A stretch of 4,902 nucleotides of DNA from Naegleria gruberi (taxonomy: Eukaryota), in the NCBI GenBank assembly GCA_000004985.1, contig GG739172.1. One strand, written 5' to 3'. Numbering within the stretch: position 1 is the stretch's first letter; the number at the start of each line of letters is the position of its first letter. Position numbers and translations under genes: made by a program. Under the pieces are notes generated by a model. The model saw nothing but the letters and a program-made list of their open reading frames with translations, made no database searches and was not told the origin of the DNA. Shown here piece after piece: positions 1-2,165 of this stretch.

Positions 1-2165
1 TGAGGATCCCTTTTTAATAATTGATATGTCTTCAATTGGAATAATGTAAGAGGATGAAAAACTGAAAGAATGTTTTGATTTCTTCTTTTCACTGTCAATC
101 AATGAAGAAACTAACTCCTTTTCAGATACTTTCCCATAAGATGATTTGCTTCTTTCAATATTTGGTGTGGAGCCCTCATAATATTCATCCTCCTCGTCAT
201 TCATATTGAAAATAAGTCGCTTGTCTAAAAGTTTTTCTTCAATTTGTTTCTCTGCCTTCTCCTTACTTTTCAGTTTTCTCAATTTCTTTACAATTTTCCA
301 CACAAAGAATATTCCAAAACCTAATGCTATTCCTAATGCGAATAGAAAGAGAGAGCATCCAATGATGATGATAGCAAATGTTCCATACGGGACTTCTGGA
401 AGCAATCTACAGTCGTATAGGAATACATCTGATTTTTCTGTGATTATCTTCTCTAAATAATATCCTTCATCACATGTTTTGATTAATACAGGTAAAGAGA
501 GAACGTCAGACGAAGTTTTAACTGTCAAGCTATCATTATATCCAATCATTGTTAAATTATCATTTGATTTGAGAATAAAGAAGACTTTGAAGGAAACTGA
601 ATCCATAGTTTGATCCACTGTAATAGCAACCCTTTGGTCTAATGATGTGATATTCAACAAATCTTGCACTCTATTATTGATTTCTCCTTTCCCATCAATT
701 CCACTAAAATTCAAAAAGTAACTTTTTCCAATGACCAACTCGAAAAATTCATCTTGTTTAGAAGCTCCAATAACAGAAACTGTTTTCAGGTACACTCTTT
801 CAGCAATCTCATTTTCCGAAATGGTGGTGTCACTTAATGTCAATAGATTCTTATCGTAATTGAAAAACCCAATAGATCCTTTCAATTTAGCTGTGTTACT
901 ATTGAATACTGAACTTATCATGTCAATCTTGGATCTCTTCTCTCCAAAATAGAAAACACCACCTCTCATTGCATAATTATTTGCAAAATATGATTTTTCA
1001 AATGAAAAATAGGTATTATCAGTATAGCTATTACTATTTTTGACTGAAATTGCACCTCCAGAGCATATTTCAAGATTTGGAATATTATCAACACACTCAA
1101 CTCTATTATTAATGAATGAAGAATCACGTATAGTGCTCGAAAATTGAATATTTCCTATATAAATAGCTCCTCCTGATAGTAAGGCAACATTATCTCTGAA
1201 TGTACAATTGAAAACTTGGAAAATTGAACAAGTTTCAATATAGAGAGGACCATACAATGCTTTAGATCCAATAAAATTTGAGGAACCAATAAAAATCACA
1301 CTCTGAGTGCTTTCTATTGACAACACGGATCCAATTATGAGTGGTCTATTATTGTAAAAATTGCATTGCCATAAATTAATGTTGGAATAGCTTGAAATTT
1401 CTATTGAACCAACCCCTTTTGGGAAAGAGGAGGTTGTTATTTCCATTGCGTAACAATTAGTACATTTCATTAGATATTTTTCATTACCTGAATATGAACT
1501 AGATGCAAAAGTTAATCCCTTAATTGACAAACTTTCAAGAATGTCAAATTGAAACAAATTCTGACCTTTGTTTGTTGTAATATTTGTAAAACTCCACTTC
1601 TTTCCATTATATCCAATAATGATATTCACATCTTTAGTCAAAACTGAATCTTGTAATTCAACGTTTGAAAAATTAGCATCCTCAACAAAACTCATTGAAA
1701 TTCTTACAAGTTTCGAATTGGAAATGGATAATGATTTGAAAGTTGAAACTACTGTCATCATTCCAAGTATACTCCCCTCAATATTCACATTATTTCCATG
1801 CAGAATACCAAAAGTTACATATATTGACGATCTTAGAATATTCACCTGATTGGTGAAACTTATTTTGAGTGAATTTTTCAATACATTAGAAACAAATATC
1901 GAATTCTCAACAATGAAATACTCAGCAAACGTTCCTCTCACATAATTAATCGCTTCTCCTATCAAGACATTTGCAAATATACAATTTTCCAAAATGATAT
2001 TAAGAGGTATCCAAACACTATTATACTTGATGATCATGTTTTGAAAATTCAAATCATGAAAGTATACTGTATTAATCTGAGGAGGAATGGAAATGCCATT
2101 TCCATCTTGTGTGTTGAGGCAGGTCAAGATGGGTGTTATTGTTGATGATTCGACTAGTTTCGTTA
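1..2165 (-). CDS. Partial CDS (both ends missing) of a large type I transmembrane surface protein. The ectodomain carries Chlamydia-Pmp-like repeats (GGAI / FxxN, predicted parallel beta-helix). One TM helix and a long charged cytoplasmic tail follow.
   Basis: The reverse complement is translated with codons on + coordinates 1-3, 4-6, and so on, and checked line by line, giving 721 sense codons and no stop from 2163 down to 1. Sample peptides are ...TKLVESSTITPILTCLNTQDGNGISIPPQINTVYFHDLNFQNMIIKYNSVWIPLNIILENC..., ...FRDNVALLSGGAIYIGNIQFSSTIRDSSFINNRVECVDNIPNLEICSGGAISVKNSNSYTDNTYFSFEKSYFANNYAMRGGVFYFGEK... and ...KTCDEGYYLEKIITEKSDVFLYDCRLLPEVPYGTFAIIIIGCSLFLFALGIALGFGIFFVWKIVKKLRKLKSKEKAEKQIEEKLLDKRLIFNMNDEEDEYYEGSTPNIERSKSSYGKVSEKELVSSLIDSEKKKSKHSFSFSSSYIIPIEDIISIIKKGSS. 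GGAI occurs twice and a GGVF variant once. There are many FxxN or FxNN motifs (FRDN, FINN, FANN, FNSN, FYNN, FTNI, FSNV, FTNQ). The ORF runs into the N gap at its 5' end and off the window at its 3' end. Confidence 0.8.
298..378 (-). other. Transmembrane helix of the minus-strand surface protein.
   Basis: It encodes FAIIIIGCSLFLFALGIALGFGIFFVW, 27 mostly hydrophobic residues with small-xxx-small motifs (GIALG, GFG). A Lys/Arg-rich stop-transfer sequence (KIVKKLRKLKSK) follows immediately, indicating type I topology. The + strand 84-aa track ORF 206..460 is the antisense of this segment. Confidence 0.7.

What the first reader, a model, noticed from the sequence alone, without database searches (positions are those of the whole stretch)
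379..2165. Large Chlamydia-Pmp-like (GGAI / FxxN) beta-helix ectodomain in a eukaryotic type I membrane protein, absent from the ORF track
The minus strand is one continuous 721-codon frame that the supplied ORF list misses. The track shows only its antisense artefacts, 206..460 and 1568..1849. The peptide carries the signature short motifs of polymorphic-membrane-protein passenger domains: GGAIYIGN, GGAISVKN, GGVFYFG and many FxNN (FRDN, FINN, FANN, FNSN, FYNN). Three consecutive repeat units lie between roughly 930 and 1200. In Pmp-family proteins these repeats form right-handed parallel beta-helices used as surface adhesins. Here the domain is fused to a eukaryotic-style TM helix and cytoplasmic tail rather than to a bacterial autotransporter barrel. 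In a protist this makes it a candidate adhesin or variant surface-antigen family member. Its N-terminus and promoter are hidden in the gap, so the gene is almost certainly unannotated or mis-annotated in the source assembly.
Basis: partly seen in the sequence, partly recalled or inferred. Interest (0 to 1): 0.6.

Follow-up and report, generated by a model that had tools for sequence, protein, structure and literature searches.

The report
Naegleria Pmp-repeat beta-helix membrane protein
The minus strand encodes part of a Naegleria gruberi surface-type membrane protein whose outer domain is built from the same FxxN/GGAI beta-helix repeats as chlamydial Pmp proteins. This architecture is already known from Trichomonas and other eukaryotes, and the gene is already in GenBank as an uncharacterised partial "predicted protein".

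Summary
Window 2163..1 (minus strand) is one stop-free frame of 721 codons; the longest in 300 shuffles was 131. It carries GGAI, GGAI and GGVF, each preceded by an FxxN, then a hydrophobic helix and a K/E/S-rich tail.

The window is a complete 4,902-bp Naegleria gruberi scaffold. The gene is annotated as XP_002668266.1, "predicted protein, partial", 658 aa, starting at an internal Met just below the gap.

Residues 215-455 are homologous to Pmp-repeat proteins:
- An exhaustive phmmer search gave 170 hits, the best non-self at E=3.5e-20.
- All 17 hits checked pass Pfam Chlam_PMP.
- Shuffled and reversed controls gave no hits.
- The protein itself scores 17.3 bits on Pfam PF02415 (cut-off 20.6) and 16.1 bits on TIGR01376 (cut-off 15).

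It lacks the Pmp middle domain and the autotransporter barrel. Its layout matches trichomonad, Heterostelium and Bryopsis Pmp-like type I proteins. No Naegleria paralogue was found, so a variant-antigen family is unsupported. An adhesin role is inference only. It is a new member of a known kind, of modest interest.

The parts
1..2163 (-). Stop-free reading frame of 721 codons, incomplete at both ends. The N-terminus is lost in the gap and the C-terminus runs off the scaffold. It corresponds to N. gruberi XP_002668266.1 (658 aa, = frame residues 43-700).
799..1821 (-). Predicted right-handed parallel beta-helix, aa about 115-455, about 13 rungs. pLDDT is above 90 for aa 260-450 and 55-78 for aa 120-260.
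799..1521 (-). Footprint of sequence homology to Chlam_PMP / POMP repeat proteins (aa 215-455). It is the only part of the protein with detectable relatives.
895..1200 (-). Canonical Pmp rungs: FRDN-GGAI, FINN-GGAI (43-aa rung with a Cys357...Cys367 loop insertion), FANN-GGVF and FNSN-KGSI (degenerate).
385..795 (-). Membrane-proximal region, aa 457-593. It has no homologues, low model confidence, four N-x-S/T sequons and a Cys564...Cys585 pair just before the membrane.
277..384 (-). Single transmembrane helix, aa 594-629 in the model; hydrophobic core about 596-622.
1..276 (-). Cytoplasmic tail of at least 92 aa, K/E/S-rich, with an acidic cluster (NDEEDEYYE) and one Yxx-phi (YGKV). It has no NPx[YF]. 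It is not terminated within the scaffold.
2166..2521 (.). Assembly gap of 356 N that hides the start codon and any signal peptide. The same-strand tRNA at 2522-2590 limits the missing 5' part to at most about 118 codons, if the gap size is right.

Best explanation
This is a real, single-exon (within the window) Naegleria gruberi gene for a type I membrane glycoprotein.

The extracellular part is a right-handed parallel beta-helix. Its best-defined rungs (aa about 260-450) are Pmp/POMP-type. In each rung a short strand carries F-x-x-N, and about 9 residues later comes a GG[A/V][I/F] turn. According to the published Pmp models, these two motifs pack against each other inside the helix core. They are therefore fold-building elements, not ligand contacts. 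The variable loops between them, such as the 43-residue rung with the Cys357-Cys367 insertion, would form the exposed face.

The helix is followed by a stalk of about 137 residues, one TM helix and a charged cytoplasmic tail. This replaces the middle domain and autotransporter barrel of chlamydial Pmps. It is the layout of trichomonad Pmp-like proteins and of relatives in Heterostelium and Bryopsis.

Shown here: the open frame, the organism, the existing annotation, the repeat homology and the TM helix.
Predicted: the beta-helix fold and the N-out topology (positive-inside rule).
Inferred by analogy only: that it sits on the amoeba's surface and binds something, such as substrate, prey or glycans, as an adhesin or receptor.
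For: - Frame and statistics.
- Identity with XP_002668266.1 of N. gruberi on a 4,902-bp contig.
- Exhaustive phmmer against 1.84 billion representatives: 170 hits at E<=1e-3 and 18 at E<=1e-10, all mapping to aa 215-455.
- All 17 hits scanned pass Pfam Chlam_PMP (47-307 bits), and many also pass Beta_helix PF13229.
- In a 33-sequence alignment F322, F350, N353 and N396 are invariant. F269, N325, G331/332, G369/370, F393 and G401/402 are conserved in at least 90%.
- TIGR01376 POMP_repeat scores 16.1 bits (cut-off 15) on the whole protein and 19.3 bits on the core.
- Twenty shuffles and the reversed core give no hit at all, against 117 bits for the real core.
- The AlphaFold2 model has pLDDT above 90 over aa 260-450 and a TM helix at 594-629.
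- Relatives with the same repeats + TM + tail layout: Heterostelium PPL_09602, Bryopsis GMH44097.1 and unnamed P0042, P0114, P0039.
- Trichomonad Pmps are described with this architecture, and the paper tests their effect on adhesion to host cells in over-expression assays (PMC6701047).
- The structural role of the motifs is described in PMC10715098.
Against: - Pfam PF02415 is below its gathering score (17.3 vs 20.6 bits, one stretch).
- There are only 3 canonical GGx and 5 in-register FxxN motifs, far fewer than in typical family members.
- The confident part of the model depends on an alignment made of Pmp-repeat segments. Single-sequence AlphaFold gave mean pLDDT 34.7. Foldseek against the PDB had no hit at E<=0.001.
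- Residues 1-115 and 457-596 are unmodelled and have no homologues.
- No signal peptide is visible because it lies in the gap, so surface exposure is not shown.
- Tagged trichomonad Pmps were found mainly in the ER, Golgi or lysosome.
- There is no expression or localisation evidence for this gene.
Confidence: 0.7

Rival explanations
1. It is a membrane-anchored carbohydrate-active enzyme, a beta-helix glycoside hydrolase, lyase or epimerase acting on extracellular or prey polysaccharide, rather than a passive binding protein.
Confidence: 0.12
2. It is one member of a large, fast-evolving variant surface-antigen family of Naegleria.
For: The protein is long, repeat-bearing and probably surface-exposed. 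It lies on a tiny unplaced scaffold, which is typical of repeated or hard-to-assemble loci. Pmp-like genes form multi-member families in Trichomonas (PMC6701047).
Against: Its 90% cluster has one member. A word-indexed search of 5.8 billion proteins found only itself and one distant metagenomic protein. In the profile search the only Naegleria protein among the 120 hits listed (of 438) was itself. In the exhaustive search every hit matched the generic repeat core only, at about 30% identity. N. gruberi is free-living, so no host immune pressure is expected.
Confidence: 0.06
3. It is a decaying pseudogene, a bacterial contaminant or an assembly artefact rather than a working Naegleria gene.
For: The scaffold is only 4.9 kb and contains a gap. 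The gene has neither start nor stop in the window. Closest relatives are mostly unnamed metagenomic proteins.
Against: 721 codons stay open where about 8% of random codons would be stops. GC is about 0.30 across the gene, like its neighbours. The neighbours are eukaryote-like: a protein kinase with a low-complexity insert and a tRNA. A single-pass TM plus tail is a eukaryotic layout, not a bacterial autotransporter. The core motifs are conserved in register with family-invariant columns.
Confidence: 0.05
4. The motifs are chance occurrences in an N/S/I/F-rich protein and there is no real relationship to Pmp repeats.
For: FxxN is expected about 4 times by composition. Pfam is sub-threshold.
Against: Shuffled and reversed cores give zero hits, against 166 hits at E<1e-3 for the real order. 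The best non-self hit is E=3.5e-20 in a library of 1.84 billion. Family-invariant columns coincide with the query's motifs.
Confidence: 0.02

Closest known systems
Trichomonad Pmp-like proteins (e.g. TVAG_212570; Handrich et al. 2019, PMC6701047)
   Same: They are eukaryotic proteins with N-terminal FxxN / GGA[ILV] repeats and no Pmp middle domain or autotransporter barrel. They have a C-terminal transmembrane domain and a cytoplasmic tail with an acidic cluster.
   Different: The conserved ATPITK motif is absent, even allowing 2 mismatches. No NPx[YF] endocytic motif is present in the visible tail. There are far fewer canonical repeats. It appears single-copy rather than part of a multi-member family. 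The host is a free-living heterolobosean, not a mucosal parasite.
Chlamydial polymorphic membrane proteins (Pmp; type V autotransporters)
   Same: They share paired FxxN and GGA[ILV] motifs spaced as in Pmp repeat rungs, a predicted right-handed beta-helix, and one rung with a long loop insertion comparable to the loops described for Pmps (PMC10715098).
   Different: There is no Pmp middle domain, no beta-barrel translocator and no bacterial signal or context. It is anchored by an alpha-helical TM segment. Pfam repeat score is below threshold.
Heterostelium album PPL_09602 (P0250), Bryopsis GMH44097.1 (P0074) and unnamed P0042
   Same: They have PF02415 repeats followed by a single TM helix and a short charged tail. 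P0042 aligns with the query over aa 266-454 at 27% identity, E=1e-10, including the loop-insertion rung.
   Different: Similarity is confined to the repeat core. The N-terminal 214 residues, the stalk and the tail are unrelated. These relatives carry many more canonical repeats.
Pectin-lyase-like right-handed beta-helix superfamily (GH87, GH110, PL6, AlgE4, tailspikes, PfbA)
   Different: There is no sequence-level family match and no identified catalytic residues. The resemblance is to the generic scaffold.

Membership tests
Chlam_PMP / POMP repeat domain family (Pfam PF02415, NCBIfam TIGR01376) | Score at or above the curated cut-off of the repeat model | tested here: inconclusive
   Pfam PF02415 scores 17.3 bits against a gathering score of 20.6, so it fails. 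TIGR01376 scores 16.1 bits against a cut-off of 15, and 19.3 bits on aa 215-455, so it passes.
Chlam_PMP / POMP repeat domain family (Pfam PF02415, NCBIfam TIGR01376) | Significant homology to bona fide members, in register with the FxxN and GGA columns | tested here: met
   Best non-self hit E=3.5e-20. All 17 hits scanned pass PF02415. Invariant and near-invariant columns coincide with the query's motifs. Shuffle and reverse controls are empty.
Chlam_PMP / POMP repeat domain family (Pfam PF02415, NCBIfam TIGR01376) | Repeats form rungs of a right-handed beta-helix | tested here: met
Chlamydial Pmp autotransporters | Pmp middle domain following the repeat region | tested here: not met
   No such Pfam hit at E<=1. 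Residues 456-593 have no homologues.
Chlamydial Pmp autotransporters | C-terminal autotransporter beta-barrel | tested here: not met
   No autotransporter hit. Instead there is a hydrophobic alpha-helix at 594-629 followed by a charged tail. The extreme C-terminus lies beyond the scaffold, but the visible 92 residues are hydrophilic.
Trichomonad Pmp-like type I proteins (PMC6701047) | FxxN/GGA repeats towards the N-terminus plus a C-terminal TMD, without middle or autotransporter domains | tested here: met
Trichomonad Pmp-like type I proteins (PMC6701047) | Conserved ATPITK motif | tested here: not met
   No match with up to 2 substitutions.
Trichomonad Pmp-like type I proteins (PMC6701047) | NPx[YF] endocytic motif and acidic cluster in the cytoplasmic tail | tested here: inconclusive
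   An acidic cluster (NDEEDEYYE) and one Yxx-phi (YGKV) are present. NPx[YF] is absent from the 92 visible residues. The tail is incomplete.
Type I (N-out) secretory membrane protein | N-terminal signal peptide | not testable with these tools
   The N-terminus lies in the 356-N gap. Met43, used by the GenBank model, is followed by a poor signal-like segment, and the frame stays open upstream (P=0.027 by chance).
Variant surface-antigen multigene family | Many paralogues in the same genome | tested here: not met
   The cluster has one member. No other Naegleria protein appeared in three protein searches. The genome itself could not be searched with tblastn.

The most novel reading that the evidence does not exclude
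Pmp-type beta-helix ectodomains on a single-pass membrane anchor may be a widespread, possibly ancient class of eukaryotic surface proteins. Members are present in Discoba (this Naegleria gene), Amoebozoa (Heterostelium), Chlorophyta (Bryopsis) and Parabasalia. This would contrast with a trichomonad-specific acquisition from mucosal bacteria. In that case the Naegleria copy would be a single-copy, tractable model for what these proteins bind in a free-living phagotroph, such as prey or substrate recognition.
Probability: 0.25. Interest if true: 0.45.

Novelty: new member of a known kind. Interest (0 to 1): 0.25.

Why it matters
It gives an uncharacterised, truncated N. gruberi gene model a domain identity and a topology. 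It also extends the known range of eukaryotic Pmp-like type I membrane proteins to Heterolobosea. In the full-text library searched here, no paper links Naegleria with Pmp proteins.

If the protein does reach the surface, it is a candidate adhesion or prey-recognition molecule in a genus that includes the pathogen N. fowleri. The practical gain is small:
- The fold and architecture are already described elsewhere.
- The gene is apparently single-copy.
- No function is demonstrated.

Tried and rejected
- ARAGORN found no tRNA. Rfam found the truncated one.
- phmmer against PDB sequences gave no match at E<=10.
- The look-up of encoding contigs for P0001 returned nothing on record.
- Self-BLASTP of the ectodomain showed no off-diagonal repeats. 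The units are too short and degenerate.
- A word-indexed search with aa 215-455 alone returned nothing, not even the protein itself. I treat this as a limitation of the tool, not as evidence.
- Foldseek against the PDB gave the right fold class but nothing at E<=0.001, because half the model is low-confidence.
- The afdb50 library was unavailable.
- Single-sequence AlphaFold of aa 1-470 failed with mean pLDDT 34.7. It gives no independent support for the fold or for the N-terminal 115 residues.
- Cluster look-ups of 20 relatives gave organism names for only two clusters, Bryopsis and an unclassified bacterium. The taxonomic origin of the closest hits stays largely unknown.
- Two literature searches for Naegleria plus Pmp terms found nothing relevant.
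- Rejected: a bacterial-style ORF reading of 2072..2596, which is mostly N.
- Rejected: the + strand ORFs 206..460 and 1568..1849. They are short, start with TTG and lie antisense to a homology-supported frame.

Full report
**1. What is in the sequence**

The window is AT-rich (GC about 0.27-0.36 outside the gap). It has a run of 356 N at 2166-2521.

Translating the minus strand from base 2163 to base 1 gives 721 codons without a stop. The other two minus frames are riddled with stops. In 300 shuffles of bases 1-2163 the longest open run in any frame was 131 codons, mean 77. From base composition about 8.2% of codons would be stops, so 721 open codons has P of about 1.5e-27.

The mechanical ORF list omits this frame because it has no stop inside the window.
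- GGAI at aa 331, GGAI at aa 369 and GGVF at aa 401.
- FYNN at aa 269, FRDN at 322, FINN at 350, FANN at 393 and FNSN at 420.

**2. Source and annotation**

A search of 5.8 billion proteins returned a 100%-identical entry, P0001. It is 658 aa, named 'predicted protein, partial [Naegleria gruberi]', with accessions EFC35522.1 / XP_002668266.1. Its only contig is 4,902 bp long, so the window is that whole scaffold.

The deposited model starts at the first Met below the gap (frame residue 43) and stops at frame residue 700. The frame stays open for the 42 codons upstream of that Met (P=0.027 by chance). The true start is therefore probably inside the gap.

A same-strand tRNA fragment sits at 2522-2590 (Rfam 49.2 bits). 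It reads as tRNA-Glu(UUC), and its 3' acceptor arm is lost in the gap. It bounds the missing 5' part to at most about 118 codons, if the gap size is accurate.

It is annotated but truncated, unnamed and without any recorded Pfam domain.

**3. Is it Pmp-like?**

Direct model scores are borderline:

| Model | Score | Curated cut-off |
|---|---|---|
| Pfam Chlam_PMP (PF02415), whole protein | 17.3 bits, one stretch | 20.6 |
| NCBIfam TIGR01376 POMP_repeat, whole protein | 16.1 bits | 15 |
| NCBIfam TIGR01376 POMP_repeat, aa 215-455 | 19.3 bits | 15 |

Homology is much clearer.
- An exhaustive phmmer scan of aa 1-600 against 1.84 billion representatives gave 170 hits at E<=1e-3 and 18 at E<=1e-10. 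The best non-self hit was E=3.5e-20 at about 30% identity.
- Re-aligning locally, every significant stretch maps to aa about 215-455, which is window 799-1521.
- All ten top hits, and seven further hits chosen for having a C-terminal TM segment, pass PF02415 at 47-307 bits. Many also pass Beta_helix PF13229.
- In a 33-sequence alignment the invariant columns are the query's F322, F350, N353 and N396. The columns conserved in at least 90% include F269, N325, G331/G332, G369/G370, F393 and G401/G402. The match is therefore in the register of the signature motifs.
- Twenty shuffles of the core, and its reversal, gave no hit at all against the same targets. The real core scored up to 117 bits, with 166 hits at E<1e-3. 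Composition does not explain the similarity.
- Residues 1-214 and 456-593 match nothing.

**4. Fold**

AlphaFold2 was run with that alignment. Mean pLDDT was 62.9, distributed as follows:

| Residues | pLDDT |
|---|---|
| about 260-450 | above 90 |
| about 120-260 | 55-78 |
| 1-115 | below 50 |
| 457-596 | below 50 |
| 594-629 | clean alpha-helix (block means about 76-82) |

The strand pattern gives about 13 rungs of 20-28 residues. A short strand carries the F (or I) of FxxN at aa 219, 242, 269, 297, 322, 350, 393, 420 and 448. One rung has 43 residues and holds a Cys357...Cys367 loop.

One caveat applies. A single-sequence prediction failed (mean pLDDT 34.7). The fold call therefore rests on the homologous alignment and is not independent of section 3.

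**5. Topology**

The only strongly hydrophobic segment is aa about 591-627. There are 9 K/R in the 20 residues from aa 623 and 2 in the 20 residues before the helix. By the positive-inside rule the beta-helix is outside and the K/E/S-rich tail of at least 92 residues is cytoplasmic. This is an inference.

Seven N-x-S/T sequons lie in the ectodomain. The tail has an acidic cluster and one Yxx-phi motif. It has no NPx[YF] or dileucine motif.

**6. Comparison with known systems**

Chlamydial Pmps are autotransporters with a repeat region, a middle domain and a beta-barrel. The last two are absent here.

Published AlphaFold analyses place the paired FxxN and GGA motifs buried in the helix core, with variable loops on one face. 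The authors conclude that the motifs build the fold and do not themselves bind ligands. They note the same motifs in Trichomonas, Methanobrevibacter and Phycisphaerae, and PF02415 in more than 100 non-chlamydial species (PMC10715098).

Trichomonad Pmp-like proteins have the layout seen here: N-terminal repeats, no middle or autotransporter domain, a C-terminal TMD and a tail. They also have an ATPITK motif and NPx[YF] tails, which this protein lacks (PMC6701047).

My profile search also found PF02415 proteins in the social amoeba Heterostelium album (PPL_09602). That protein shows repeats, a TM helix and a short tail. The green alga Bryopsis has a comparable protein, as do several unnamed sequences.

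The architecture is therefore a known eukaryotic kind, and this is a divergent, repeat-poor member from a lineage not discussed in the papers searched.

**7. Function**

Nothing here measures function. The most economical reading is a surface-exposed beta-helix scaffold that presents loops for binding, as an adhesin or receptor for substrate, prey or glycans. This is by analogy with chlamydial Pmps and with the adhesion assays on over-expressed TvPmp.

The variant-antigen-family idea finds no support:
- The 90% cluster has one member.
- No other Naegleria protein appeared in any search.
- Everything outside the repeat core is orphan sequence.

The genome itself could not be searched.

**8. Verdict**

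It is wrong on annotation status and unsupported on family membership. The adhesin function is only an analogy. This is a new member of a known kind, with interest about 0.25.

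Noticed in passing
window 2522-2590 (-): A truncated tRNA gene, Rfam RF00005 at 49.2 bits. Read by eye it is tRNA-Glu, anticodon UUC. 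Its 3' acceptor arm is lost in the N-gap, so ARAGORN misses it. It lies on the same strand as, and just upstream of, the beta-helix gene.
   Followed up: partly
window 2935-4007 (+): Two overlapping ORFs in different frames, 2935-3396 and 3330-4007. The first opens with a signal-peptide-like segment (MRTVNLHFLLLSILLVISCCCLL...). The second ends with a TM helix and a short basic tail (…IGIIVGATIGGLFVIICFSASIIGLLYMFYRKKQYTTLN). They are probably one Cys-rich type I membrane protein gene split by a short intron or a frameshift. Many GT..AG pairs could join them and none stands out. There was no Pfam hit.
   Followed up: partly
window 4156-4902 (+): The 5' part of a protein kinase gene (Pfam Pkinase 32.5 bits, just above the cut-off). 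It has an N/D/G-rich low-complexity insert (…DYDHDYHDSNNVGGDDDGGEENAND…). It runs off the right end of the scaffold.
   Followed up: no
whole window: The window is an entire 4,902-bp unplaced scaffold of the N. gruberi assembly. All three protein genes on it are incomplete or interrupted, so gene models here are unreliable.
   Followed up: partly
relatives P0004 and P0122 (same 3.0-Mb ENA contig): These Pmp-repeat proteins carry a Cys-rich module with a sub-threshold match to Pfam DUF7630 immediately before their first TM segment. P0004 also has several more hydrophobic segments. This suggests other eukaryotic Pmp-repeat architectures, including multi-pass ones. The query has only a Cys564...Cys585 pair at the equivalent position and no DUF7630 hit.
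   Followed up: no
tool behaviour: The word-indexed protein search with aa 215-455 alone returned no hit, not even the identical GenBank protein that the full-length query and the profile query both recovered. Negative results from that tool should not be read as absence.
   Followed up: no
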